A stretch of 63,421 bases of DNA from an uncultured Planctomycetia bacterium (GCA_964650515.1 CAZYUB010000013.1:1-63421), one strand, 5' to 3'. Positions 1-11,205 are shown, counted from the stretch's first letter. Notes: a model not told the origin generated them from the letters alone. Numbers and translations are program-made.

Positions 1-57
1 CTACGCCCTTCGGGCAAATTGCCTTCGGCAACTTGTTTTATCGCCGGCCCGTTATAC
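1..57 (+). repeat. attC site, 3' part only (divergent type)
   Basis: Hairpin modules GCCC-TTC-GGGC and TTGCC-TTC-GGCAA end in core GTTATAC (51-57); truncated by window edge. Confidence 0.6.
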
Positions 58-123
58 GCAATTGCGCCTAAAAACCGTGAAATAGGTTTGCGGGCGGGGA
101 AAGACAAAATGCAAACAAGCTCC

Positions 124-250
124 TCATAACAAGCCGCTCAATCTTGACGGGCAACTGCTGCGGTTCGATCGAAGTTTTTACTTGAAATCGGCGGTAAGTG
201 CTCTAAAAAGATTTAGTGCTGTTGCCCGCAAATTAGCGGCGGTGTTAGCC
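124..250 (+). repeat. attC site, long divergent type (127 bp)
   Basis: R'' TCATAAC 124-130; arms GCCGCT/AGCGGC and CGGGCAAC/GTTGCCCG; R' GTTAGCC 244-250. Confidence 0.85.
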
Positions 251-259
251 GGAGATAAA

Positions 260-775
260 ATGACTGATAAAAAGATCATGAAACTAGAACAAAGGCCACG
301 CTTTAAAGGTCGCTTCACATTTGAGATCAAAAGTGACGGCACTGTTGACGTTAATTATGCAGGTCCTGCTTTCCGCCAGCAATTAACGCTATCTTTAGCA
401 GGGATAGATCCTAATCCTGCTTATCAGCAGCATAAGGCAATAGATATGATCGTCGGAATGTGCATCTTTGCTATACCTGTTCTTGGTTTTCTTGTAGCGT
501 CAATAAAAGCGCAGCCTGGAACAAATGAATTTCCATGGTTTTTTGGGATGTTTTTGGTATTTTTGTTGCCTCTCGGCTTATGCTGGTATGGATTCATAAA
601 GAAGAGTTTTGATATAGCCATCTTTACGGAATCATCTACCGGGAAGAGCCTTATCATTCATAAAAACTTACCAGATCCCGATACGTTTAATTTGTTCGTG
701 TCCAAACTGCAAGATGCCATTAATAAAAAGCATGGAAATATTAAAGGAAACGATAATATTGGTTTTAAGACATAG
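260..775 (+). CDS. Cassette hypothetical membrane protein (2 TM)
   Basis: GGAG RBS 251-254 before ATG 260; the track's 182 start lies inside attC; two hydrophobic helices. Confidence 0.8.
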   Translation: MTDKKIMKLEQRPRFKGRFTFEIKSDGTVDVNYAGPAFRQQLTLSLAGIDPNPAYQQHKAIDMIVGMCIFAIPVLGFLVASIKAQPGTNEFPWFFGMFLVFLLPLGLCWYGFIKKSFDIAIFTESSTGKSLIIHKNLPDPDTFNLFVSKLQDAINKKHGNIKGNDNIGFKT

Positions 776-776
776 C

Positions 777-839
777 GGCTAACATTTCACTCCAGCGGAG
801 GCTCGCTACGCTCGCACCCGCTGAGTTCAATCGTTAGAA
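777..839 (+). repeat. attC site (host-type backbone)
   Basis: GGCTAAC-ATTTCACTCCAGCGG...CCGCTGAGTTCAATC-GTTAGAA; ACTC(C)AGCGG/CCGCTGAGT with one extrahelical base. Confidence 0.95.
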
Positions 840-846
840 GGAGAAA

Positions 847-1176
847 ATGATAAATAAAACGATAATCTGCGTTATCTTGGTGGCAATAAGTTTAACTATT
901 AGTTTGGCTAACGTATCCGCAGAAGAAGCGATAAACAGAGATGAACCCTCCTTAGGGCTCGAAGAAGCATTAACTCTAGCTAAGGAATACATAAAAGACC
1001 ACAAAATTGATATATCAAAGCATTACCTCGATAATATAAGACTACTAAGCAAATCAAATTGGATGGAAGGAAAACACTGGATTCTGACTTGGCGCTTAAA
1101 AGGGCGTTACGTCGGAGGAGAAATATTTATCATAGTAGGAATGGATAAAAAAATAATAGACATCGGAGGATTATAG
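847..1176 (+). CDS. Cassette small secreted protein (possible PepSY-like fold)
   Basis: AGGAG RBS; signal peptide ending VSA-EE; alpha-beta pattern. Confidence 0.8.
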   Translation: MINKTIICVILVAISLTISLANVSAEEAINRDEPSLGLEEALTLAKEYIKDHKIDISKHYLDNIRLLSKSNWMEGKHWILTWRLKGRYVGGEIFIIVGMDKKIIDIGGL

Positions 1177-1179
1177 AAC

Positions 1180-1255
1180 TTCTAACATTTCACTCCAGCG
1201 GACTGTCCCGGCCGCCTGTTTATAGGGTGCCAGCCGCTGAGTTAAAACGTTAGGC
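1180..1255 (+). repeat. attC site
   Basis: TTCTAAC...GTTAGGC, shared backbone. Confidence 0.95.
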
Positions 1256-1270
1256 GAGGAGAAATATTAA

Positions 1271-1588
1271 ATGAAAAAGCTATCAATTAAATTGTCTGCA
1301 TACTTAATAATAACGATTCTTGCCGCGATTGCTTCAATCATATCGTTTTTCAAGGTTGGAAACTCAGGTCCATTTGATCCAGATAAAAATGCGGTCTATC
1401 GTTATTTATTCTTGTGGATATTATCATTTTCTTTAGGTATCGTTATATCGGTAAGAATAATAAGACTTGCAGCTGGGATGAAGTCCATGATCGGCAATAT
1501 TTGCTGGTCAGCGTACGGAGGGATAACAATATTATTTCACCTATTGTCACTATTTATTCTTTTAAGCTTTGGAGGGGGCGGGAGATGA
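1271..1588 (+). CDS. Cassette hypothetical membrane protein (3 TM)
   Basis: GAGGAG RBS; three hydrophobic segments. Confidence 0.8.
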   Translation: MKKLSIKLSAYLIITILAAIASIISFFKVGNSGPFDPDKNAVYRYLFLWILSFSLGIVISVRIIRLAAGMKSMIGNICWSAYGGITILFHLLSLFILLSFGGGGR

Positions 1589-1601
1589 AGATAATGAAGG
1601 C

Positions 1602-1676
1602 GCCTAACATTTCACTCCAGCGAACGGCGCTGGCCATCTGTTTTAATGTCGCCGCCGCTGAGTTCAATCGTTGGAA
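1602..1676 (+). repeat. attC site
   Basis: GCCTAAC...GTTGGAA, shared backbone. Confidence 0.95.
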
Positions 1677-1684
1677 ATAAAAAT

Positions 1685-2119
1685 ATGATCTATAATAAAT
1701 TTAAAATGTATAAGATTTTTGTGATAGCTGTTTTTGTTTTAACCACATTGTGTTCTTCAAGCATGTCAGCAGAACAAGTATCGTTTGATTCTCCCGTGAG
1801 ATGTGTTTTTCAATACGGTCAATATATGGATTCCCAAAAAGCTAAAACCGACACACAAAAAAATGAACTTGAGTGGGTTTTCTATGATCTCCTTGGCTCA
1901 AAACCGTATTTTTATGCAGGTGGTGATACCGGTTCGATAGAAGTACATAAACACACAACAAGTGATGGATTATCTGTTTGGCTTAAGCAAGGGAATGGCG
2001 CACATCTGTTCTCAATTTGGCCAGATGGAACAGCTTTTTGGAGTAAACATAATGACTTATTCAACAAGGCTACGCAACAGTTTCGTGGGACTTGCACAAA
2101 TATTAGGAAAGTAGAATAA
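1685..2119 (+). CDS. Cassette hypothetical secreted beta-rich protein (start 1685 or 1706)
   Basis: Signal peptide ending SMSA-EQ; the track's 1646 start lies within attC. Confidence 0.75.
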   Translation: MIYNKFKMYKIFVIAVFVLTTLCSSSMSAEQVSFDSPVRCVFQYGQYMDSQKAKTDTQKNELEWVFYDLLGSKPYFYAGGDTGSIEVHKHTTSDGLSVWLKQGNGAHLFSIWPDGTAFWSKHNDLFNKATQQFRGTCTNIRKVE

Positions 2120-2149
2120 TACGAATAGACTTATACAGATTAAATAATT

Positions 2150-2223
2150 TTCCAACAACTCAATCCAGCGGACGTTCATAGCGGCTTCGCCGCTATGCCC
2201 GCCGCTGATTTCGGGCGTTATGG
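2150..2223 (+). repeat. attC site, divergent type
   Basis: TTCCAAC-AACTCAATCCAGCGG...CCGCTGATTTCGGGC-GTTATGG; internal hairpin CATAGCGGC-TTC-GCCGCTATG. Confidence 0.93.
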
Positions 2224-2256
2224 GAAGATAATTTTTAATCCAGAAAGACATAATAT

Positions 2257-2745
2257 ATGCCTATAATTGTAATTATAGTCTTTTTAATTTTATTAATCAT
2301 TCCAATCGTCGTATCAGTTAGGTTTATCGGCTGTATCTTTTCTTCTGAATTACGCAGCAGGGTAAAAAAACACCCCATTATTCATGCGATATGGGCTATT
2401 ATTACCATCTTACTTATTGCAGGTATTTATGTTCCCTTTTTTGCGGGAGGAGTAAAACCGGTTCCAAAGAGTATATTATGCGCCAACAATTTAAAACAAA
2501 TTGGCCAAGCATGCGCATTTTATAGTGAAGAAAATAACGGCAAGTGGCCTAATCGATTATCGGACCTGGTTCCAACTTACTTAGATGATGAAAAAGTAAT
2601 AAAATGTCCAATTGTAAAGAATCAATATAATTATGTTCAGCCAAATTCAAGCTCGTCATCAAATACGGTTGTAATATATTGTGAACATCCTAAGCCAACT
2701 CATAGCGTTGTACTATATAAAGGTGGATATATAAGGATTAGGTGA
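2257..2745 (+). CDS. Cassette membrane-anchored pilin-like protein (DUF1559/PVC pseudopilin-like domain)
   Basis: AIITILLIAGIYVP followed by C-x-NNLKQIG-x-A-x3-Y-x5-G-x2-P; no G|F-x-x-x-E prepilin site. Confidence 0.65.
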   Translation: MPIIVIIVFLILLIIPIVVSVRFIGCIFSSELRSRVKKHPIIHAIWAIITILLIAGIYVPFFAGGVKPVPKSILCANNLKQIGQACAFYSEENNGKWPNRLSDLVPTYLDDEKVIKCPIVKNQYNYVQPNSSSSSNTVVIYCEHPKPTHSVVLYKGGYIRIR

Positions 2746-2760
2746 TGAAGAAATATAAAC

Positions 2761-2835
2761 CCATAACATTTCACTCCAGCGGACTGTCCCAGCATCCTGT
2801 TTTAAGGGGCCAGCCGCTGAGTTCAAACGTTAGCT
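2761..2835 (+). repeat. attC site
   Basis: CCATAAC...GTTAGCT, shared backbone. Confidence 0.95.
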
Positions 2836-2843
2836 GAAGGAAA

Positions 2844-3182
2844 ATGGATAAAATAACAAAAAATAGAACGACAATATTGATCTATGGTATTTTATCCGCC
2901 ATATTGTTTGTGCTTATCTTTATAAAGGAATCGGCGCCATCCGGGGATGTGCCAAAGGCATGGGTGCATGGTGTTACATATGTTTTGCCGTTAGCTTTAG
3001 GATCTATGATATTCGGTTGGATTGGTATTATAAGGCTTATAATATTAACTAAAAGTCTTGGTTTGAAACAAGTATTTAGAGATATAAAAACAATCATCTC
3101 AGGAATATTACTATTGCCAGCCGTATATTTGACTGTGCAAATGATCAGAATAATAGTTATTTCAATGAAACAGAGCAGCTAA
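2844..3182 (+). CDS. Cassette hypothetical membrane protein (3 TM)
   Basis: Three hydrophobic helices; TAA stop inside R''. Confidence 0.8.
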   Translation: MDKITKNRTTILIYGILSAILFVLIFIKESAPSGDVPKAWVHGVTYVLPLALGSMIFGWIGIIRLIILTKSLGLKQVFRDIKTIISGILLLPAVYLTVQMIRIIVISMKQSS

Positions 3183-3251
3183 CATCTTACTCCAGCGGAC
3201 TGTCCCAGCGTCCTGTTTTAAGGTGCCACCCGCTGAGTTCAATCGTTATGC
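3177..3251 (+). repeat. attC site
   Basis: AGCTAAC...GTTATGC, shared backbone. Confidence 0.95.
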
Positions 3252-3694
3252 ATAAAATAATAAAATATATAAAAAATCTTTATAATAATAACTCAAATAA
3301 GAAGTGCGTTATTCATCCAGATATAAGCGCACTGAACATATGCAATGGATGTAAGAAATACTACTGCAAAAATTGTTTGACTGAAGGCCTCAAATATTAT
3401 TATTGCGCCTCACGAGAATGCCGAAAATTATATCTTCAAGAATTAGATTATGCAAATAATCCAAGGTTTTGCCAGAAATGCATTTCAGAAACAACAGAAG
3501 AATCAGCAGGGAATATAGTTACTGTAAATGGCATTTTCGGAGAAAATCTATATGATGAAACGCATCGAGATTGCCCAATTTGCGGTGCCGTTACCTGTGA
3601 AAAAGTAGGCACATTTGGGCGGTACAAAGCTTCATATAAGGTAATATGGCTTAATGATGAAAGAACAAAATTTATATCAAGGAAAATAAAATAG
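3248..3694 (+). CDS. Cassette Cys-rich Zn-finger protein (B-box-like plus second Zn ribbon)
   Basis: C-x2-H-x7-C-x2-C-x4-C-x2-C-x9-C-x4-C, then CxxC...CxxC; ATG embedded in R'. Confidence 0.7.
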   Translation: MHKIIKYIKNLYNNNSNKKCVIHPDISALNICNGCKKYYCKNCLTEGLKYYYCASRECRKLYLQELDYANNPRFCQKCISETTEESAGNIVTVNGIFGENLYDETHRDCPICGAVTCEKVGTFGRYKASYKVIWLNDERTKFISRKIK

Positions 3695-3768
3695 CATAAC
3701 ATTTCACTCCAGCGGACCGCGCCAGGTATCTTTTAGCAGGGCTTGGCCGCTGAGTTCAATCGTTAGCA
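3694..3768 (+). repeat. attC site
   Basis: GCATAAC...GTTAGCA, shared backbone. Confidence 0.95.
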
Positions 3769-3780
3769 GGGGATAATAAT

Positions 3781-4041
3781 ATGACAGGATGCCCGCAAAG
3801 CAATAGGACATATGACAAAAAAGAAGATAAATGTGCGAATTGCGGGCATAGCGAATTCCCAGGGCCGGTCATATCAAGCAGCCCGATTAATGCTAATCCC
3901 GAAGATCAATTAGGATCATATAAATTCTTTGCAGCCTGGCGCAATATAGAAAAAACAAAATTGGGTAAGGCATTGTCAATTATTGCGATATTAGTAGCCA
4001 TTATAATCGCAATATTGATGGTTTTGGCACTGAAAAAGTAA
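3781..4041 (+). CDS. Cassette small Zn-ribbon-like protein with C-terminal TM anchor
   Basis: C...CANCGH at N-terminus; hydrophobic tail ALSIIAILVAIIIAILMVLAL. Confidence 0.7.
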   Translation: MTGCPQSNRTYDKKEDKCANCGHSEFPGPVISSSPINANPEDQLGSYKFFAAWRNIEKTKLGKALSIIAILVAIIIAILMVLALKK

Positions 4042-4048
4042 ATGGGAC

Positions 4049-4122
4049 TGCTAACATTTCACTTCAGCGGACCGCGCCAGCGTGTCTATAGGGGGCTCGG
4101 CCGCTGAGTTCAATCGTTAGCC
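4049..4122 (+). repeat. attC site
   Basis: TGCTAAC...GTTAGCC, shared backbone. Confidence 0.95.
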
Positions 4123-4142
4123 ATAATAAATAAAATAATATA

Positions 4143-4171
4143 TTGTATATACATTTGTAATATGATATAAT
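4143..4171 (+). promoter_or_regulatory. sigma70 promoter of BrnT/CopG cassette with palindromic operator TGTATATACA (4144-4153)
   Basis: TTGTAT-17-TATAAT with TG extension; ATG begins 7 nt after the -10. Confidence 0.8.
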
Positions 4172-4177
4172 CTATCC

Positions 4178-4435
4178 ATGAAAGAATCGCGCTGGGATCT
4201 TACTAAGAATGAACGATTAAAGAGGATAAGAGGAGTTTCTTTTGATGATTTAATAAATTCAAAGCTAGTATGCATTCTGGAACATCCGGTTAGGAAGAAC
4301 CAGAAATTAATGTTATTTGATTACAAAAAATATATCTGGGTAGTTCCGGTCATAGAAGAAGAGGATTATTACTTTTTAAAAACGCTATACCCAAGCAGAA
4401 AATACACAAAACAATTTAAAGGAGAAATAAAATGA
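4178..4435 (+). CDS. BrnT-like ribonuclease toxin
   Basis: W(D)xxKNExLKxxRGVSF...LKTLYPSRK signature; upstream of CopG-type antitoxin. Confidence 0.85.
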   Translation: MKESRWDLTKNERLKRIRGVSFDDLINSKLVCILEHPVRKNQKLMLFDYKKYIWVVPVIEEEDYYFLKTLYPSRKYTKQFKGEIK

Positions 4436-4680
4436 AAAAGATCAAATTAACCTCAGAAGAGAGAAAAATTGAAAAGGATTTGCTAGAAGGAGTCTATAAA
4501 CCGGTTTCAGAAAGCGATTTTCGCGCCATGTCGGAATCAATTGCTCGTAGAAGAAAAGATGCAGTATTGAATATTAGAGTCAATAGCAAAGACTTGGAAT
4601 ATATTAAACACAAAGCTAGAAAGCTCGGGATAAAATATCAAACATTTATTTCAGAAATTATTCACAAGGTGGCATTATAA
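4432..4680 (+). CDS. BrnA/CopG-family antitoxin (C-terminal RHH)
   Basis: KDAVLNIRVNSKDLxxIKxKAxxxGIKYQTFISEIIH; AGGAG RBS; overlaps toxin stop. Confidence 0.88.
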   Translation: MKKIKLTSEERKIEKDLLEGVYKPVSESDFRAMSESIARRRKDAVLNIRVNSKDLEYIKHKARKLGIKYQTFISEIIHKVAL

Positions 4681-4684
4681 AAAG

Positions 4685-4759
4685 GGCTAACATCTCACTC
4701 CAGCGGACTGTCCCAGCTCCCTGTTTTAATGGGCCAGCCGCTGAGTTCAATCGTTGGCC
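4685..4759 (+). repeat. attC site
   Basis: GGCTAAC...GTTGGCC, shared backbone. Confidence 0.95.
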
Positions 4760-4809
4760 GTAATAATATGAAAAATAGAATAACAACCGATATCCCTGCC
4801 TGATTCGTC

Positions 4810-4838
4810 TTGATAATTGAAAGATAACCTGATAAAAT
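4810..4838 (+). promoter_or_regulatory. Putative sigma70 promoter of R-M cassette
   Basis: TTGATA-17-TAAAAT with TG extension; ATG begins 7 nt after the -10. Confidence 0.65.
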
Positions 4839-4844
4839 GAAGCC

Positions 4845-5576
4845 ATGAACGAGAACGAAATCCTTAAAAAATTACCTAATCTCACCGAAAGAGCCGTTTC
4901 AAGTTATTGGCAAACGAGAACTTCTCAGCGCAAAAAACAAAAGAAATCAGGAAAGGCTGATCAAGGGCTTCGTAGCGCCGTCACTGGCGGCGCACAGATG
5001 GACGGTTTCATCAATATATTCACGGAATTAGCTTTGCATGCAGGTATCCCAAAAGACTGCATATTTCGAAAAAAAGCCGTTGAGCTTCCCGGGTTTTTTA
5101 GACCTACCAAAGAGTGGGATTTACTTATTGTATGCAAAAACACTCTTATCGCCGCAATCGAAGCTAAGTCGCAGGTTGGTCCTTCTTTTGGGAACAATTT
5201 CAATAACAGAACAGAAGAAGCAATAGGCAGCGCCCTGGATATTTGGACAGCCTTTCGAGAAAAAGCATATCTTGAAAGCCCGCAACCGTTTCTTGGCTAT
5301 TTTTTTATGCTAGAAGATTGCGAAGCGTCAAATCAACCCGTCAGCGTAAACGAACCCCACTTTAAAGTATTTCCTGAATTTATCGGTGCATCATATATGC
5401 GCCGTTATGAGCTATTTTGCCGTAAACTTGTTTTAGAGAGACATTATACAGCTTCTACTTTCATTACCTCATCGGCTATAAACGGTCTCAAAGGCTCTTA
5501 TAAAACACCGGCCGACGATCTATCAATGGAACGCTTTGCGAAGGTGTTGCTTTCTCACATAGCAACCTTCAGGTAA
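4845..5576 (+). CDS. Type II restriction endonuclease, XhoI/PaeR7I family
   Basis: LPGFFRPTKEWDL...IEAKSQVGPSFGNNFNNRTEEAIGSA family motif with PD-(D/E)xK core. Confidence 0.88.
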   Translation: MNENEILKKLPNLTERAVSSYWQTRTSQRKKQKKSGKADQGLRSAVTGGAQMDGFINIFTELALHAGIPKDCIFRKKAVELPGFFRPTKEWDLLIVCKNTLIAAIEAKSQVGPSFGNNFNNRTEEAIGSALDIWTAFREKAYLESPQPFLGYFFMLEDCEASNQPVSVNEPHFKVFPEFIGASYMRRYELFCRKLVLERHYTASTFITSSAINGLKGSYKTPADDLSMERFAKVLLSHIATFR

Positions 5577-5580
5577 AACT

Positions 5581-6531
5581 ATGCCTACAACGCACAGATT
5601 AATCAACGGAGATGCGCGAGACCTATCTTTCTTAGATGATGGATCGGTACATCTTGTTGTCACATCTCCACCCTACTGGAACCTAAAACGCTACAACGAA
5701 AGTCCAGACCAGATGGGGCATATTCAAGATTACGAGATATTTTTAAAAGAACTGGAAAAAGTATGGAAACAGGCATTTCGCGTTCTCGTGCCCGGTGGCC
5801 GATTAGTATGTGTGGTTGGAGACGTCTGCGTAGCTAGAAAAGATTATGGACGACATTTAGTATTTCCGCTTCATGCGGATATTTGCGTACTATGTCGAAA
5901 AATCGGTTTTGACAATCTAAACCCGATCATATGGCATAAAATATCCAACGCCTCATATGAAGTGAATAACGGCTCAAAGTTTTTAGGAAAACCATACGAA
6001 CCCAACGCTATCATAAAGAATGATATGGAGTTCATCCTTATGCAGCGCAAGCCGGGGGGATATAGAAAACCATCCTATGCTCAACGAAAAGCAAGCAAAA
6101 TTCCTAAAGATAAATTTAATCGTTGGTTTCAACAAATATGGAATATCCCTGGGGCATCAACTAAACATCACCCGGCTCCATTTCCATTAGAGCTGGCGGA
6201 TCGTCTAGTGCGCATGTTTTCATTTGTTGGTGACACAGTATTGGATCCGTTTTGCGGTTCTGGCACAACCATGGTTGCCGCATTAAAGTCGGGCCGAAAC
6301 AGCATAGGAATAGAAATCGATCCTGAATATTGTAAAATGGTCGCTCGAAATGTAAGGTCCGAATTAAGCAACCTTTTTTCAAGCGATACATTTATCTTCG
6401 AGAAAGACGCAAAAGAAAATAAAGTTCCCTACATAAAATGTGAAGATATTTATAATATTCGCCCACCTAAAAATAAATTAAAAGAGGCCAACATTTCACT
6501 CCAGCGGATCCGCCTTGCGGCGGACCGCTGA
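5581..6531 (+). CDS. DNA amino-methyltransferase, beta class (N4-C/N6-A)
   Basis: Motif IV TSPPY near N-terminus, HPAPFP, motif I VLDPFCGSGTT near C-terminus; last 15 codons lie inside attC. Confidence 0.92.
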   Translation: MPTTHRLINGDARDLSFLDDGSVHLVVTSPPYWNLKRYNESPDQMGHIQDYEIFLKELEKVWKQAFRVLVPGGRLVCVVGDVCVARKDYGRHLVFPLHADICVLCRKIGFDNLNPIIWHKISNASYEVNNGSKFLGKPYEPNAIIKNDMEFILMQRKPGGYRKPSYAQRKASKIPKDKFNRWFQQIWNIPGASTKHHPAPFPLELADRLVRMFSFVGDTVLDPFCGSGTTMVAALKSGRNSIGIEIDPEYCKMVARNVRSELSNLFSSDTFIFEKDAKENKVPYIKCEDIYNIRPPKNKLKEANISLQRIRLAADR

Positions 6532-6546
6532 GTTCAATCGTTCTCC
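6486..6546 (+). repeat. attC site (short, overlapped by MTase 3' end)
   Basis: GGCCAAC...GTTCTCC; internal CCGCC-TTGC-GGCGG hairpin. Confidence 0.93.
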
Positions 6547-6564
6547 GTAATTATAATATAATGC

Positions 6565-6593
6565 TTGACATAGTATACATTAATGTGTATACT
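6565..6593 (+). promoter_or_regulatory. sigma70 promoter of Phd/RelE cassette with operator AGTATACA-N6-TGTATACT (6572-6593)
   Basis: TTGACA-17-TATACT; perfect 8-bp inverted repeat covers spacer and -10. Confidence 0.85.
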
Positions 6594-6619
6594 TATCCTT
6601 GATAAAGGAGGACGTGCAA

Positions 6620-6892
6620 ATGACCCATACCATTACATTAAAAGCTTTACGCCCTGGATTACCTAAAGTAGCTAGCGCTATAGCATCGAGATACGACCGC
6701 TATATTGTTACAAAACGCGGCAACCCCGTCATGATGCTTATCAATCCGGAAGATTTTGAAGGACTTCTCGAAACAATAGAAATTCTTTCCGACAAAACTG
6801 CCTTAAGACGCATAAAAAAAGCAAGAAAAGAAGCGGAAGCCGGCAAGACCGTCACACTTGCAGAACTAAGGCGTCGGATCGAGCGTGTATAG
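6620..6892 (+). CDS. Phd/YefM-family antitoxin
   Basis: AAGGAGG RBS; IVTKRGNPVMMLINPEDFEGLLETIEILSD motif. Confidence 0.9.
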   Translation: MTHTITLKALRPGLPKVASAIASRYDRYIVTKRGNPVMMLINPEDFEGLLETIEILSDKTALRRIKKARKEAEAGKTVTLAELRRRIERV

Positions 6893-7145
6893 TTTGGAAT
6901 TTGGCAGGCAGGTCGGAAGAGATCTGAAAAAAGTATACCATTCCGACAAAGCGCTATATCAAAGATTTATCAACGCATTTGAAGATATGGCGAGATCTCC
7001 TGAACAGGGGAAGAGGCTTCACGGTAAGCTCTCAGGCTTGTATTCCCACAGAATGGGAAGCTATAGGATTATATACGAAGTTTATCACTCAAAGCTATTG
7101 GTTATCATTCTAGATTTGGGCCATCGTAAAGATGTCTATCGATAA
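6885..7145 (+). CDS. RelE/ParE-family toxin
   Basis: GKRLHGKLSGLYSHRMGSYRIIYEV...LGHRKDVYR; GTG start overlaps antitoxin. Confidence 0.9.
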   Translation: MYSLEFGRQVGRDLKKVYHSDKALYQRFINAFEDMARSPEQGKRLHGKLSGLYSHRMGSYRIIYEVYHSKLLVIILDLGHRKDVYR

Positions 7146-7146
7146 A

Positions 7147-7395
7147 ATGAAAAAGATTAAACTGACTTCAGAAGAAAGAAAGATCGAAAAAAATCTCTTA
7201 GCTGTGGTTTATAAGTCCGCTTCGGCCAGCAAATTCCATGCTGTATCAGAAGCGATTGCGCATAGGAAAGAGGATGTGCTAAAGGAAATGCAAGAAAATC
7301 TAACAGACAGAAAAGTTATCGATAAATTTGAAGCGGAAGAACGCGCTAAAAATGTACGTTTTTATACGGCTGATGAAATACGGAAAAGAATATAA
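7147..7395 (+). CDS. Chimeric antitoxin-like protein (BrnA-type N-terminus plus RelB/Phd-like acidic-basic tail)
   Basis: 30 of the first 43 aa are identical to the 4432-4680 antitoxin; the RHH domain is replaced by ENLTDRKVIDKFEAEERAKNVRFYTADEIRKRI. Confidence 0.75.
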   Translation: MKKIKLTSEERKIEKNLLAVVYKSASASKFHAVSEAIAHRKEDVLKEMQENLTDRKVIDKFEAEERAKNVRFYTADEIRKRI

Positions 7396-7399
7396 AAAC

Positions 7400-7476
7400 G
7401 GAGAACATTTCACTCCAGCCCTCCGCAGTTTTGCTGGCGCAAAACTAAACGCGAGGGCTGGGTTCAAATGTTGGGC
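7400..7476 (+). repeat. Terminal attC site
   Basis: GGAGAAC...GTTGGGC; internal AGTTTTGC-TGGC-GCAAAACT hairpin. Confidence 0.9.
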
Positions 7477-7490
7477 TTTAGGAGAAGATA

Positions 7491-8081
7491 ATGTTTGATG
7501 ACATACCGCAGGGCATCCTTAACCGGATGAAGGAGCTTGAGCAGATCGACGCTCAAGATCGAGCTGACGGCACAGCCCGACTTGAGCGCCTTCGCCAGAT
7601 TCCCCCGGAGACAGGCAAGTTTATCGCGCTTCTTGCCGCAACCGCTCCTGCAGGACGATATCTTGAGATAGGAACCAGTGCAGGCTACTCCACTCTCTGG
7701 CTCGCGCTGGCGTGTCGCCTAGTCGGTCGAAGGATCACAACATTCGAAGTCCTTGACCAGAAGGTTAAACTGGCACGTCACACATTCGAAAGGGCAGGTG
7801 TCGGCGATGTCGTGGACCTCATCCACGGCAATGCCCTTGGCTATCTCCCCGGTTGTTCCGACGTGTCATTCTGTTTTCTCGACGCAGAAAAGGATATCTA
7901 CGCCGAGTGTTACGAAGTCATTGTCCCCAATATGGTGCCTGGCGGCATTCTTGTTGCCGACAACGCCATCAACCATGAGAAGGCGCTTCGGCCCATGCTG
8001 GACCGGGCATTGACCGATGACCGCGTGGACGCGCTCATCGTCCCGATCGGAAAAGGCGAACTGGTGTGCAGGAAGAAATGA
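7491..8081 (+). CDS. SAM-dependent O-methyltransferase (YrrM/COMT-like)
   Basis: [16 protein letters not shown] motif I; FCFLDAEK; ILVADN. Confidence 0.9.
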
Positions 8082-8521
8082 CTAAACCGATCACACCACT
8101 TGTTGGCGCAGACACATTCCTTGTAAATGACAAGTCGCAGGTATGCCTCATCCAGCGTTCGGATACCCGGCTCTGGGCTTTGCCGGGCGGCTGTCAGGAT
8201 CTGGGTGAAACGCCAAAACAATGCGCGGAACGGGAATTTTACGAGGAGACGGGCCTGCAAATCGAGGCAACCCATTTGCTTGGTGTCTTCAGTTCTACCC
8301 TCTATTCCTACGACACCTATCCGTACAAGGAAAACGAATTTTGCCACTTGCTCTTCTTTGGCCGTTTTCTCGGGGGAAAAGAGAGAATATCCGGCGAATC
8401 AAAAGCTATTGCCTGGTATTCTGAAAATTCCCTGCCAAAGCTTTCAGATGGCCACGAACCCAGGATCCGGTTTGGTTTCGCCTGGCTGAAAAACAAATCT
8501 ATAGGGCCACACTTTGAATGA
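8078..8521 (+). CDS. Nudix hydrolase
   Basis: Nudix box [23 protein letters not shown]; ATGA overlap with upstream stop. Confidence 0.9.
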
Positions 8522-9393
8522 AAAGTAAAATACTCCTATTAGGCATCACGCTGGCCGTATTATTCTTTCTTTTGTCGGTCCTGCCCGTCAATTCGCGCTA
8601 TGCTTATTCCGGCGACATCCATATATATTACGAGGACTACGGGCGAAAGGATGCCCCGGCGATCGTCTTCATCCACGGCTGGTCGTGCGACCATACCGTA
8701 TGGCGGCTGCAGGTACCGGAGTTACGCAAGGACTACCGCCTTATCATCGTTGATCTGCCCGGCTTCGGGTCAAGCAGCAAGCCCACCAATGTCGCGTATA
8801 CCCCGGATTATCTCGCCGAGGCCGTCGGCGCGGTAATGTCGTCGGCCGGGATAGAGCGCGCCGTTCTTGTCGGGCACAGCAGCGGTTTTGCGGTAGCGCG
8901 CAGGTTTGCGATCAAGTATCCCGAGAAGACCGCGGCGATCTGCGACGTAGATGGGGTATTTATGGATCTGGCCTGGGACCCGAAAGCCCTGGAGGCGTTC
9001 AAGGCCGAGATGGACACCTTTATGAAAGGGCTCAACGGCAAGGACAGGGAAGAGTTCGTTCGCTGGTTCGTTAATATGACTTTCTACGGCAAGACCCCGG
9101 AATCTCTGCAAAAAGAGATAATGGTGTTAATGACCAAAGCGAACGCGTATGCCGCCAACAGCGCGATGGAGGAGATGTGGCGCCCCAAGGAGTGGGAGAG
9201 AGCCGTAGTCAAGGCGCCCATGCTGGCTATCTACGCAAAGATACCGGAATTGCCTCTCGACGAGGAGGCGCAGCTAAAAGCCCAATTCCCCGATCTTACC
9301 TACGTCGAATGGGACGATACCGGGCATTTCCTGATGATGCAGCATCCGGAAAGGTTCAATAAACTGCTGTCGGATTTCATCAAAAGCCTATAA
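8518..9393 (+). CDS. Exported alpha/beta hydrolase
   Basis: Signal/anchor helix; VFIHGW oxyanion motif; GHSSG nucleophile elbow; C-terminal GHFLM. Confidence 0.9.
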   Translation: MKSKILLLGITLAVLFFLLSVLPVNSRYAYSGDIHIYYEDYGRKDAPAIVFIHGWSCDHTVWRLQVPELRKDYRLIIVDLPGFGSSSKPTNVAYTPDYLAEAVGAVMSSAGIERAVLVGHSSGFAVARRFAIKYPEKTAAICDVDGVFMDLAWDPKALEAFKAEMDTFMKGLNGKDREEFVRWFVNMTFYGKTPESLQKEIMVLMTKANAYAANSAMEEMWRPKEWERAVVKAPMLAIYAKIPELPLDEEAQLKAQFPDLTYVEWDDTGHFLMMQHPERFNKLLSDFIKSL

Positions 9394-9453
9394 AGAAGAT
9401 TTTTGAAAGAAAATCCCTCCTTTTTACGTCTACTATAGCGTCCTATAATATTA

Positions 9454-9481
9454 TTGACATATTTGTCGGGTGTGCTATAAT
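9454..9481 (+). promoter_or_regulatory. sigma70 promoter of ilv operon
   Basis: TTGACA-16-TATAAT with TG extension. Confidence 0.85.
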
Positions 9482-9546
9482 TCTGGTTTACAATGGCTTA
9501 GACTTTCCTTACGCCAGTAACCCCAAGTAATATAAGGAGATATATC

Positions 9547-11205
9547 ATGTTCAGGAGCGAAAGGGTCAAAAAAGGCCTCGAAAAGGTCGGTAGCAGGTCA
9601 CTGATGTATGCGACAGGCATGACTAAGTCCGAGATAGAGAGGCCGTTCATCGGCATAGCGTCCAGCTTTACAGACCTCGTGCCTGGGCATGTCCATTTAA
9701 GGGAGCTCGAGCGCTCTATCGAACACGGCATATACGCTGCCGGCGGGACCGCTTTCGTCTTCGGGATACCGGCTATCTGCGATGGCATCGCGATGGGGCA
9801 CTTGGGCATGAACTGCTCGCTCCCGTCGAGGGAACTTATCGCCGACTCGGTCGAGATGGTCACTACCGCGCATGCGCTGGACGGGCTTATTTTGCTCACG
9901 AACTGCGACAAGATAACTCCCGGAATGATGATGGCAGTGAGCCGCATGAACATACCGGCGATCGTCGTTACCGGCGGGCCGATGCTCTCGGGCCGCGCGC
10001 AGATGAGGCGCCTTTCGCTCGTCAAAGACACATTTGAGGCGGTCGGTAGGCACAAAGCGGGGCATATCTCGAGGGAAGAGCTCGAGGAGCTCGAATGCAA
10101 CGCGTGCCCGGGCGCCGGAGCGTGCCAGGGGCTTTATACCGCTAACACGATGGCCTGCGTCTCTGAGGCGATAGGCATGGCCATGCCGGGCGGGGCAACG
10201 GCGCTTGCCTCGTCGGCGAAGAGGGAGAGGATAGCTTACGTCAGCGGCGAGAGGATAGTCGAACTCGTCAGGAAAGAGATAACACCGAAGAAGATAATGA
10301 CACTGAAGGCGTTCGAGAACGCGTTGCGCGTCGATATGGCGCTCGGCGGCTCGACGAACACCGTCTTGCATGTCACGGCGATCGCGCACGAGCTGGGGAT
10401 CAAACTGCCCATCGAGATCTTCGACAGCATCAGCAGGGATACGCCGCATATATCGGATATTTTGCCGTCGGGCAAGTATTTCATGGAAGACCTCGAGTTC
10501 GCGGGCGGAATTCCCGCGGTCATGAAGAGGTTGAAGACGAAGCTCAGCGACCATATGACCGTCAGCGGGAAGACCGTCTACCAGATAGCGGATTCCGCGC
10601 GCATCGACGATGAAGAGGTCATAAGGCCGCTTAACAGGCCTTACCATAAAGAAGGAGGGATCGCCGTCCTGAAGGGCAATATCGCCCCGGACGGCGCCGT
10701 AGTCAAGCAGACCGCGGTCCAGGAGAAGGTAAAGCATTTCATAGGGAAGGCGAAGGCCTTCAACTCCGAGGAAGACGCGATGAGGGCGATCATGGCCGGC
10801 AATATCAAGGCCGGCGATTGCGTCGTCATCCGTTACGAAGGGCCGAAGGGCGGCCCGGGGATGAGGGAGATGTTATCCCCGACGGCGGCGATAGTCGGCC
10901 TCGGCCTCGCGGACAAGGTCGCTCTGATCACGGACGGCAGGTTCTCGGGCGGAACGCAGGGGCCGTGCCTCGGGCATATATCCCCCGAAGCGGCCGAAGG
11001 CGGGCCGATCGCCGCGATACGCGACGGCGACACTATCGAGATAGACATCCCGAAAAGGAAGCTCGAGTTGAAGGTCTCGAAGGCCGAATTGGCAAAACGA
11101 ATGAAAACTATAAAGGCGCAGAAGCCGAAGATAACGACGGGATACCTCGCGCGTTACGCGAAACTCGTCACATCCGCAAGCACCGGCGCCGTCATGAAAG
11201 GTTAA
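9547..11205 (+). CDS. ilvD: Dihydroxy-acid dehydratase
   Basis: [38 protein letters not shown]. Confidence 0.97.

What the first reader, a model, noticed from the sequence alone, without database searches (positions are those of the whole stretch)
4845..6531. XhoI/PaeR7I-family endonuclease paired with a beta-class SPPY methylase, in a host whose backbone is full of CTCGAG
Seen: the REase carries the XhoI/PaeR7I motif, while the partner MTase is beta-class with TSPPY. Known: XhoI and PaeR7I cut CTCGAG and their cognate MTases are gamma-class m6A enzymes; SPPY beta enzymes are usually m4C. Seen: by eye I found no CTCGAG in 1-9700, but dozens in the backbone (e.g. 9706, 10068, 10081, 10492, 11062, 13010, 13050, 20881). 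Inference: a non-orthologous methylase pairing (m4C protection of CTCGAG, or shifted specificity), acquired recently because there is no site avoidance. It would be a very strong post-segregational killer for this genome.
Basis: partly seen in the sequence, partly recalled or inferred. Interest (0 to 1): 0.65.

Follow-up and report, generated by a model that had tools for sequence, protein, structure and literature searches.

The report
Restriction-modification pair on an integron cassette
This is an intact two-gene DNA-cutting and DNA-marking defence unit carried as one mobile integron cassette; the nuclease is a clear PaeR7I/XhoI relative but its partner methylase is of a different class, and the same pair turns out to be common in environmental bacteria, so it is an ordinary member of a widespread unit.

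Summary
The sequence observations hold. ORF 4845-5576 is an XhoI/PaeR7I-family endonuclease (Pfam E=1e-91) and is 49% identical to R.PaeR7I. ORF 5581-6531 is a beta-class amino-methyltransferase with TSPPY ahead of motif I. CTCGAG is absent from 1-9705, occurs 62 times in the rest of the window and 1348 times in the 1.76 Mb genome.

The absence in the array is not informative, because only about 1.4 sites are expected in that AT-rich stretch.

Both genes lie in one integron cassette (4754-6540) between two attC sites, with their own promoter.

The pairing is not a local swap. The same R-then-M pair is adjacent in 79 of the 80 related loci kept from a species-genome collection, at 70-81% identity across many phyla. 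Its nucleases form a clade separate from PaeR7I-type nucleases, which have a gamma-class methylase upstream.

Horizontal acquisition is supported: both same-genus genomes searched lack the nuclease, and the gene tree conflicts with host taxonomy.

CTCGAG specificity, N4-cytosine methylation and post-segregational killing remain inferences.

Verdict: a new member of a known kind, of modest interest.

The parts
4685..4759 (+). Upstream attC (belongs to the preceding BrnT/BrnA-like cassette). R'' is GGCTAAC and R' is GTTGGCC. The recombination point G|TT at 4753/4754 marks the 5' end of the R-M cassette.
   Evidence: Sequence; repeat families D1-D7; attC profile hit E=2.7e-21; folds as one hairpin with R''/R' paired.
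4754..6540 (+). The R-M integron cassette, 1787 bp, 41.6% G+C, with no CTCGAG site.
   Evidence: Bounded by the two attC R' cores. In related loci the GTT of an R'-like core lies 43-47 nt before the R start in 33 of 69.
4810..4838 (+). Cassette-internal sigma-70-like promoter TTGATA-17 nt-TAAAAT with a TG extension. It ends 7 nt before the R start codon, which suggests a leaderless or very short-leader R-M transcript.
   Evidence: Consensus scan, 10 of 12 matches. A TGnTA motif lies within 25 nt of the start codon in 44 of 69 related loci. Function was not tested.
4845..5576 (+). Type II restriction endonuclease of the XhoI/PaeR7I family, 243 aa. Putative PD-(D/E)XK triad D92 (5118-5120), E106 (5160-5162), K108 (5166-5168).
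   Evidence: PF04555 E=1.1e-91; PADLOC REase_II E=1.1e-90; 49% identity to R.PaeR7I. D92 and E106 are invariant and K108 at least 90% conserved in 25 homologues. AF2 model pLDDT 76 with only weak matches, several of them PD-(D/E)XK nucleases.
5581..6531 (+). Beta-class DNA amino-methyltransferase, 316 aa. TSPPY lies at 5662-5676 and FCGSGTT at 6250-6270. The last ~13 residues (from E304) come from read-through into the attC.
   Evidence: PF01555 E=3.8e-45. E=8e-119 to the Thermus thermophilus HB8 putative methylase in PDB 2zie. Homologues end in ...KKLE-TAG directly before GCCAAC, whereas the window has GAG at that codon.
6486..6546 (+). The cassette's own attC, about 60 nt. R'' is GGCCAAC and R' is GTTCTCC. 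It holds the TGA stop of the methylase gene.
   Evidence: Sequence; attC profile E=6.2e-12; single hairpin with paired AAC/GTT.

Best explanation
Positions 4754-6540 are one integron gene cassette that carries a complete, apparently intact type IIP restriction-modification system.

Proposed mechanism:
1. A promoter just inside the cassette drives a bicistronic R-then-M transcript. The methylase start lies 4 nt after the nuclease stop.
2. The nuclease is a PD-(D/E)XK enzyme 49% identical to PaeR7I. It most likely cuts unmethylated CTCGAG in incoming DNA.
3. The methylase is a beta-class enzyme very close to the crystallised Thermus TTHA0409. It protects the roughly 1350 host sites. Because its catalytic motif is SPPY, it probably makes N4-methylcytosine rather than the N6-methyladenine made by M.PaeR7I.
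4. The pair belongs to a large clade of R-then-beta-M units spread horizontally among many bacterial phyla, in many cases still as integron cassettes. This Omnitrophota lineage acquired it horizontally.
5. Sitting between two toxin-antitoxin cassettes, it should also behave as an addiction module that penalises loss of this part of the array.

Shown here: gene identities, motif order, cassette boundaries, conservation of the pair, phylogenetic separation from the gamma-paired type, and absence of site avoidance.

Inferred: the recognition site, the methylated base, promoter use, activity in this host, and killing on loss.
For: - Family assignments.
- 49% identity to annotated R.PaeR7I across the whole protein, with conserved blocks including WDLL...AAIE.KS.VGPSF.NNFNNRTEEAIG.
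- Intact catalytic and SAM-binding motifs that are invariant across homologues.
- attC sites on both sides.
- An integron integrase on contig C10 (383.7 bits, cut-off 265) with an attC in the orientation that fits joining to the window's start.
- R and M adjacent in 79 of 80 related loci. The nuclease reads without an internal stop in 77 of the 81 loci, window included.
- R and M distances co-vary (r=0.44, Mantel p=0.001).
- Beta-paired and gamma-paired nucleases split on one branch with support 99/91.
- Only 3 of 400 other genomes sampled from the host phylum match PF04555 at E<=0.001 (2 above the family cut-off), and neither of the 2 same-genus genomes does.
- SPPY is the motif IV of the structurally characterised N4-cytosine methyltransferase N4CMT, and CcrM (N6-adenine) has DPPY (PMC10406627).
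- CTCGAG is known to be methylated either as m6A or as m4C by methylases of different lineages of prokaryotic origin (PMC7253447).
Against: - No experiment or methylome exists for this organism.
- The specificity of TTHA0409 was not found in the papers searched. The Thermus thermophilus control genome has a PF01555 methylase but no PF04555 nuclease, so methylases of this broader family can occur without an XhoI-type partner.
- N4mC and N6mA methylases do not separate cleanly by sequence (PMC7544214), so SPPY is suggestive only.
- An R-first operon with a single visible promoter offers no obvious way to delay the nuclease on entry to a new host.
- The physical link between the window's array and the integrase contig is inferred.
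- Clean attC hairpins directly after the methylase gene were detected in only 7 of 74 related loci, against 3% at control positions, so many copies may no longer be mobile cassettes.
Confidence: 0.75

Rival explanations
1. Same R-M cassette, but the beta-class methylase makes N6-methyladenine at CTCGAG, the same mark as M.PaeR7I and M.TliI. Only the protein scaffold would differ, not the chemistry.
For: The known CTCGAG methylase cited in the literature reached here, M.TliI, is listed as m6A at base 5 (PMC8919816). Amino-methyltransferases for m4C and m6A do not group separately by sequence, and at least one m4C enzyme can methylate adenine (PMC7544214). JGI annotations name relatives 'adenine-specific', but these names are automatic.
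Against: Motif IV is SPPY and is invariant in 22 homologues. SPPY is the motif of the characterised N4-cytosine enzyme N4CMT, and the adenine enzyme CcrM has DPPY. After the near-identical Thermus hit, the best PDB sequence matches are cytosine-N4 methyltransferases (8s9m and 8s9n).
Confidence: 0.2
2. The clade has a shifted specificity. The nuclease and its methylase recognise a site other than CTCGAG, for example a related or degenerate hexamer, so the CTCGAG count in the host is irrelevant.
For: The beta-paired nucleases form their own clade on a long branch (0.93 substitutions per site) away from the PaeR7I-type. No member of the beta-paired clade with a measured specificity was found in the sources searched. 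A 41% identical methylase in the same genome pairs with an MjaI-family nuclease, a family whose prototype cuts CTAG according to my own knowledge. This shows that the methylase scaffold serves different sites.
Against: 49% identity and 68% similarity with few gaps over the whole nuclease. From my own knowledge, type II isoschizomers such as EcoRI and RsrI share specificity at about this identity, and the characterised members of PF04555 cut CTCGAG.
Confidence: 0.15
3. The cassette is a silent passenger. The genes are intact but not expressed or not active in this host, so the system neither defends nor stabilises anything.
For: Integron cassettes far from the integron's own cassette promoter are often silent (my own knowledge). 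No RNA run holding this stretch was found. Nuclease pseudogenes occur in 4 of the 81 loci examined, so decay does happen.
Against: The cassette has its own near-consensus promoter with an extended -10, and the motif position is conserved in relatives. Both reading frames are full length with all conserved residues. A silent nuclease with a silent methylase would be neutral and should accumulate defects.
Confidence: 0.1

Closest known systems
PaeR7I restriction-modification system (Pseudomonas plasmids, e.g. pRSB105; CTCGAG)
   Same: The nuclease is homologous: 49% identity over 227 aa, the same Pfam family and the same conserved catalytic blocks. Both are mobile (plasmid or transposon versus integron cassette). 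From my own knowledge, PaeR7I is a classic case of post-segregational killing (Naito, Kusano and Kobayashi, Science 1995).
   Different: PaeR7I-type loci have a 452-577 aa gamma-class methylase (PF07669 Eco57I plus TaqI_C) upstream of the nuclease. Here a 316 aa beta-class SPPY methylase lies downstream. The nucleases of the two arrangements fall on opposite sides of one well-supported branch.
TTHA0409, putative DNA methylase of Thermus thermophilus HB8 (PDB 2zie, 2zif, 2zig)
   Same: Very close sequence relative of the methylase (E=8e-119 over residues 4-260), including TSPPYW and the SAM motif. It is a dimeric beta-class enzyme (PMC7544214).
   Different: No specificity or partner nuclease was found for it in the papers searched. 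The Thermus thermophilus control genome has no PF04555 nuclease. The strain of that control genome is not stated.
R-M systems carried as integron gene cassettes (e.g. the XbaI system)
   Same: A complete R-M unit inside one cassette of a chromosomal integron. R-M functions are reported as enriched among environmental cassettes (PMC10661359).
   Different: The enzyme families are different. This particular unit is found in many phyla with a conserved cassette end and promoter.
Pandoravirus N4-cytosine methyltransferases acting on CTCGAG
   Same: They show that CTCGAG can be protected by m4C as well as by m6A, through methylases of separate lineages acquired from prokaryotes (PMC7253447).
   Different: They are orphan viral enzymes with no nuclease. 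Their sequence relationship to this methylase could not be tested here.
MjaI-family (CTAG) R-M systems with beta-class methylases
   Same: The own genome carries one at C7:19362-21360. Its SPPY methylase is 41% identical to this one. Methanothermobacter plasmid methylases are 34% identical.
   Different: The nuclease family (PF09568) and gene order (M then R) differ. That system is in the chromosome backbone and not in the integron.

Membership tests
XhoI/PaeR7I family of type II restriction endonucleases (PF04555) | Full-length match to the family profile above the curated cut-off | tested here: met
   306.3 bits against a cut-off of 25, profile positions 1-190 of 191.
XhoI/PaeR7I family of type II restriction endonucleases (PF04555) | Clear homology to a named, characterised member | tested here: met
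   49% identity and 68% positives over 227 aa to the paeR7IR product of pRSB105.
XhoI/PaeR7I family of type II restriction endonucleases (PF04555) | Conserved acidic/lysine catalytic residues of a PD-(D/E)XK core | tested here: inconclusive
   D92 and E106 are invariant and K108 at least 90% conserved. They align with D, E and K of R.PaeR7I. The fold search gave only weak matches (best E=7.6e-3), several of them PD-(D/E)XK nucleases, and no family member has a solved structure.
XhoI/PaeR7I family of type II restriction endonucleases (PF04555) | Cleavage of C^TCGAG | not testable with these tools
   Needs enzyme assay.
Beta-class DNA amino-methyltransferases (PF01555) | Family profile match and motif IV (D/N/S)PP(Y/F/W) lying N-terminal to motif I FxGxG | tested here: met
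   155 bits against a cut-off of 26.7. SPPY at residues 29-32 and FCGSG at 224-228. Motif definitions come from PMC7544214.
N4-cytosine-specific methyltransferases | Product is N4-methylcytosine | not testable with these tools
   Only the SPPY motif points this way. m4C and m6A enzymes do not separate by sequence.
PaeR7I-type R-M system (as an operon) | Cognate gamma-class (Eco57I/TaqI-like) methylase encoded next to the nuclease | tested here: not met
   The neighbour is a beta-class enzyme. tblastn with M.PaeR7I finds nothing in the whole genome. The nuclease clade is separate.
Integron gene cassette | Bounded by attC recombination sites with R''...R' cores that fold as a hairpin, within an array of like sites | tested here: met
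   About 10 attC sites between 778 and 7472. The flanking ones are at 4685-4759 and 6486-6546.
Integron gene cassette | An integron integrase in the same genome next to the array | tested here: inconclusive
   TIGR02249 gives 383.7 bits (cut-off 265) at C10:1689-2648, with an attC at C10:693-763 on the minus strand. The orientation fits a join to the window's start, but the contigs are not physically linked.
Post-segregational killing (addiction) module | Loss of the genes kills or arrests the cell | not testable with these tools
   Inferred from the 1348 target sites and, from my own knowledge, from PaeR7I experiments.

The most novel reading that the evidence does not exclude
The XhoI/PaeR7I nuclease family has undergone a non-orthologous replacement of its protecting enzyme. 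One clade is shielded by m6A from a gamma-class methylase. The other, to which this cassette belongs, is shielded by m4C from a small beta-class methylase at the same CTCGAG site. The second form has become a self-promoted, possibly leaderless, 'plug-and-play' integron cassette that moves between more than a dozen phyla and also stabilises cassette arrays by addiction.
Probability: 0.45. Interest if true: 0.4.

Novelty: new member of a known kind. Interest (0 to 1): 0.25.

Why it matters
The cassette is a clean natural example of two things.
- One restriction-nuclease family can be partnered with unrelated methylases, and probably with different protective marks.
- Integrons can circulate complete, self-expressed defence and addiction units among uncultured phyla. 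Here the host is a 1.76 Mb Omnitrophota genome from wastewater.

For restriction-enzyme specialists, the useful point is that the abundant beta-paired clade appears to lack a characterised member in the sources I could search. One cloning experiment would therefore annotate thousands of metagenomic genes. Neither point overturns anything known.

Tried and rejected
- **AlphaFold model of the methylase:** built from 22 close homologues, it was poor (pLDDT 39) and was not used. This blocked a structural comparison with viral methylases.
- **Fold search of the nuclease model:** pLDDT 76, but no PDB match at E<=0.001. It only hints at a PD-(D/E)XK fold.
- **attC detectors:** two home-made hairpin detectors were too strict or too noisy. 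A constrained version found clean sites after the methylase gene in only 7 of 74 loci, against 3% at control positions. I therefore relied on the conserved GTT position and the R''-like GCCAAC after the stop. The window's attC sequence profile found the same attC type only in one other Omnitrophota locus.
- **Literature:** searches for the specificity of TTHA0409, for M.XhoI and for a Thermus CTCGAG methylome gave nothing.
- **Propionibacterium plasmid:** the plasmid with an active CTCGAG system (PMC5644110) is not in the plasmid collection.
- **Sequencing runs:** no RNA runs hold the stretch. Contigs from four wastewater runs match the region at 99% or better in all but one laid contig, at 2-7x depth, with no cassette-loss junction. 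The one odd junction is cross-mapping from a similar attC at 3178.
- **Partner census:** a census of partner classes in another phylum failed because a locus cannot serve as a centre for the genome search.
- **Rejected idea:** that the lack of CTCGAG in the array reflects selection.

Full report
**What is at the coordinates**

The stretch 4845-6531 holds two same-strand ORFs separated by 4 nt.

The first ORF (243 aa) matches Pfam PF04555, 'Restriction endonuclease XhoI'. The match has E=1.1e-91 over essentially the whole profile. It also matches a PADLOC type II nuclease model at E=1.1e-90. A tblastn search of the plasmid collection found 111 records. The best full-length matches are the PaeR7I-type nucleases of Pseudomonas, Aeromonas and enterobacterial plasmids. 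Against the annotated paeR7IR product of pRSB105 the identity is 49% (68% positives) over 227 residues with two small gaps. The conserved blocks include PTK-WDLL, AAIE-KS-VGPSF-NNFNNRTEEAIG and PHF-VF-EF-GASY. D92 and E106 are invariant and K108 nearly so in 25 homologues.

No solved structure of this family exists in the PDB copy. A model of moderate confidence (pLDDT 76) gave only weak matches. Several of these are PD-(D/E)XK nucleases, such as EcoT38I, BstEII and Nt.BspD6I.

The second ORF (316 aa) matches PF01555, N6_N4_Mtase. It has T28-SPPY-32 near the N-terminus and F224-CGSGTT-230 near the C-terminus, which is the beta-class motif order (motif definitions in PMC7544214). It is very close (E=8e-119) to the crystallised putative methylase TTHA0409 of Thermus thermophilus HB8.

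**The CTCGAG counts**
- The window has 62 sites, the first at 9706, against 27 +/- 6 in dinucleotide shuffles.
- The whole 1.76 Mb genome has 1348 sites.
- Observed/expected is 1.8 on a first-order model and 0.94 on a maximal-order Markov model, which is mid-table among the 64 hexamer palindromes. The site is therefore not avoided, but it is not specially enriched once longer words are accounted for.
- Zero sites in 1-9705 means little. That stretch is 42% G+C and expects 1.4 sites, so P(0) is about 0.25. The cassette itself expects 0.26.
- I compared carriers and non-carriers in the host's own family, using GAGCTC as a same-composition control. The CTCGAG/GAGCTC ratios are 1.51 (this genome) and 1.45 (G027) for carriers of the beta-paired system. 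They are 1.20, 1.35 and 1.61 for three non-carriers. G088, a more distant genome with a PaeR7I-type system, has a ratio of 0.97 but no matched non-carrier. Carrying the system has left no visible depletion within the host family.

**Context: one integron cassette**

Positions 778-7472 are an array of about ten attC sites with conserved arms (AACATTTCACTCCAGCGG ... CCGCTGAGTTCAATCGTT).

The R-M pair lies between the attC at 4685-4759 and a shorter one at 6486-6546. Taking the G|TT recombination points as the ends, the cassette is 4754-6540 (1787 bp). The neighbouring cassettes are a BrnT/BrnA-like pair and a Phd/ParE pair.

The genome encodes an integron integrase on another contig (C10:1689-2648, 383.7 bits against a cut-off of 265). 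An attC and minus-strand cassettes lie upstream of it. This is the orientation expected if C10's start joins the window's start. That join is inferred.

The methylase ORF runs 13 codons into its attC. The codon just before GCCAAC is GAG here, where most relatives have TAG.

A promoter-like site, TTGATA-17-TAAAAT with a TG extension, ends 7 nt before the nuclease ATG.

**Is the pairing special to this genome? No**

A scan of one genome per species found 464 stretches encoding relatives of the nuclease, and the best 80 were kept. These are 70-81% identical and come from many phyla. They include Thermodesulfobacteriota, Planctomycetota, Verrucomicrobiota, Lentisphaerota, Nitrospirota, Chloroflexota, Aminicenantes, Bipolaricaulota, Omnitrophota and others.
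- In 79 of those 80 loci a homologue of the same beta-class methylase (62-84% identical) follows the nuclease within a few tens of bases. The exception is cut by a contig end.
- The methylase search hit its ceiling of 8000 clusters at E<=1e-20.
- The nuclease reads without an internal stop in 77 of the 81 loci, window included. Four copies have an internal stop. The methylase is decayed or frameshifted in three.
- Distances between nuclease copies and between methylase copies co-vary (r=0.44, Mantel p=0.001).
- Many loci keep cassette hallmarks. A GTT of an R'-like core (most often GTTGGCC) sits 44 nt before the start codon in 20 of 69 loci, and within -47..-43 in 33 of 69. A TGnTA motif lies within 25 nt of the start in 44 of 69. 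An R''-like GCCAAC often directly follows the methylase stop.
- Clean attC hairpins were found there in only 7 of 74 loci, against 3% at control positions, so many copies may be relics.

**How it differs from the PaeR7I type**

In six plasmid loci the partner is a 452-577 aa methylase with Eco57I and TaqI_C domains (gamma-class). The loci are pRSB105, pDV of Nitratidesulfovibrio vulgaris, Phaeobacter, Methylocystis, Paracoccus and a halophilic archaeon. The methylase lies upstream of the nuclease in five of them, and divergently across the record origin in the archaeon. None of the 111 plasmid records with the nuclease appeared among the 11 records holding a close relative of the beta-class methylase.

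A maximum-likelihood tree of 83 nucleases puts the 77 beta-paired and the 6 gamma-paired sequences on opposite sides of one branch. That branch has support 99/91 and appears in 100% of bootstrap trees.

It is not an event in this host. One other genome of the host phylum (G088) carries the PaeR7I type, with a gamma methylase 62% identical to M.PaeR7I.

**Acquisition**

The host is an Omnitrophota bacterium. Genome G027, in the same family, is identical at this locus to a record titled Candidatus Omnitrophota. Runs that hold the cassette come from wastewater.

Of 400 other genomes sampled from the phylum, three match PF04555 at E<=0.001, two of them above the family cut-off. Neither of the two same-genus genomes does. 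The window's nuclease is sister to a Thermodesulfobacteriota copy and not to the G027 copy. The cassette is 42% G+C in a 55% G+C genome. All of this fits horizontal gain through the integron. It gives no date.

**What the system most likely does**

At 49% identity to PaeR7I, with all conserved blocks present, CTCGAG is the most likely target. I put this at about 0.85, based on general experience with isoschizomer families (my own knowledge).

The methylase must protect against its partner, or the pair would not be conserved intact.

SPPY is the motif of the characterised N4-cytosine enzyme N4CMT, whereas the adenine enzyme CcrM has DPPY (PMC10406627). However, m4C and m6A enzymes do not separate cleanly by sequence (PMC7544214). 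CTCGAG is known to be modified as m6A by some methylases (M.TliI in PMC8919816; cedratvirus and mollivirus in PMC7253447). In pandoraviruses it is modified as m4C, by enzymes of a different lineage of prokaryotic origin (PMC7253447). m4C protection of this site is therefore plausible and is not a new concept.

Killing on loss is a reasonable inference from the 1348 sites and from the classic PaeR7I experiments (my own knowledge). The position between two toxin-antitoxin cassettes fits a stabilising role.

**Novelty**

R-M systems in integron cassettes are already described, for example XbaI, and R-M functions are enriched among environmental cassettes (PMC10661359).

Earlier notes from this scan on other genomes describe the same pair. 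One follow-up reached the same picture of a widespread cassette with a built-in promoter. Those are unchecked AI notes, and I re-derived the points here.

This is a new member of a known kind. The one open item of some value is the untested specificity and methylation type of the abundant beta-paired clade.

Noticed in passing
G000 contig C7:19362-21360 (outside the window): A second type II system lies in the chromosome backbone. It has a 433 aa beta-class SPPY methylase, 41% identical to the cassette's, with a C-terminal staphylococcal-nuclease-like domain (PF00565). An overlapping 234 aa MjaI-family nuclease (PF09568) follows it. CTAG-containing hexamers are the most depleted palindromes in the genome relative to composition (TCTAGA 18 sites, ACTAGT 15), although CTAG is rare in many bacteria anyway.
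   Followed up: partly
G000 contig C7:3379-6991 and C4:22665-30955 (outside the window): There are two more candidate R-M loci. One has a D12-class adenine methylase, a beta-class methylase and a convergent 453 aa ORF with no Pfam match. The other has an N6_Mtase (PF02384) gene followed by further large ORFs, which looks like a type I locus. That makes at least four systems in a 1.76 Mb genome.
   Followed up: partly
window 6488-6531: The methylase ORF reads through into its attC because the usual TAG before GCCAAC is GAG here. The other Omnitrophota copy (L029) also reads through to the same TGA inside the attC.
   Followed up: partly
window 6486-6546 compared with 1181-4759: The R-M cassette's attC is about 60 nt. 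Seven other attC sites of the array are 73-75 nt. Its outer arms match the host type, but its length and central part resemble the 60 nt attC that follows the same R-M pair in Bipolaricaulota loci (L044, L063).
   Followed up: no
loci L003, L012, L059, L076; L026, L068: Decay in relatives: four copies of the nuclease have an internal stop codon. In one of these (L012) the methylase is also riddled with stops. Two other loci have a frameshifted methylase.
   Followed up: partly
window 4178-4680 and 6599-7395: The cassettes on either side are toxin-antitoxin units (a CopG/BrnA-like antitoxin; Phd plus a ParE/RelE-like toxin and a third small ORF). Three addiction-type cassettes therefore sit together at the distal end of the array.
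   Followed up: no
G000 contig C9:93452-93522 (outside the window): A lone attC of the same sequence type lies far from the array, next to small ORFs. It could be a stray cassette or a second small cluster.
   Followed up: no
locus L085 (Paraburkholderia terrae plasmid pPT65) 2863-4593: A methylase 57% identical to the cassette's is followed by a 238 aa ORF with no Pfam match and no similarity to the XhoI family. Close relatives of this methylase therefore also pair with unrelated partners.
   Followed up: partly
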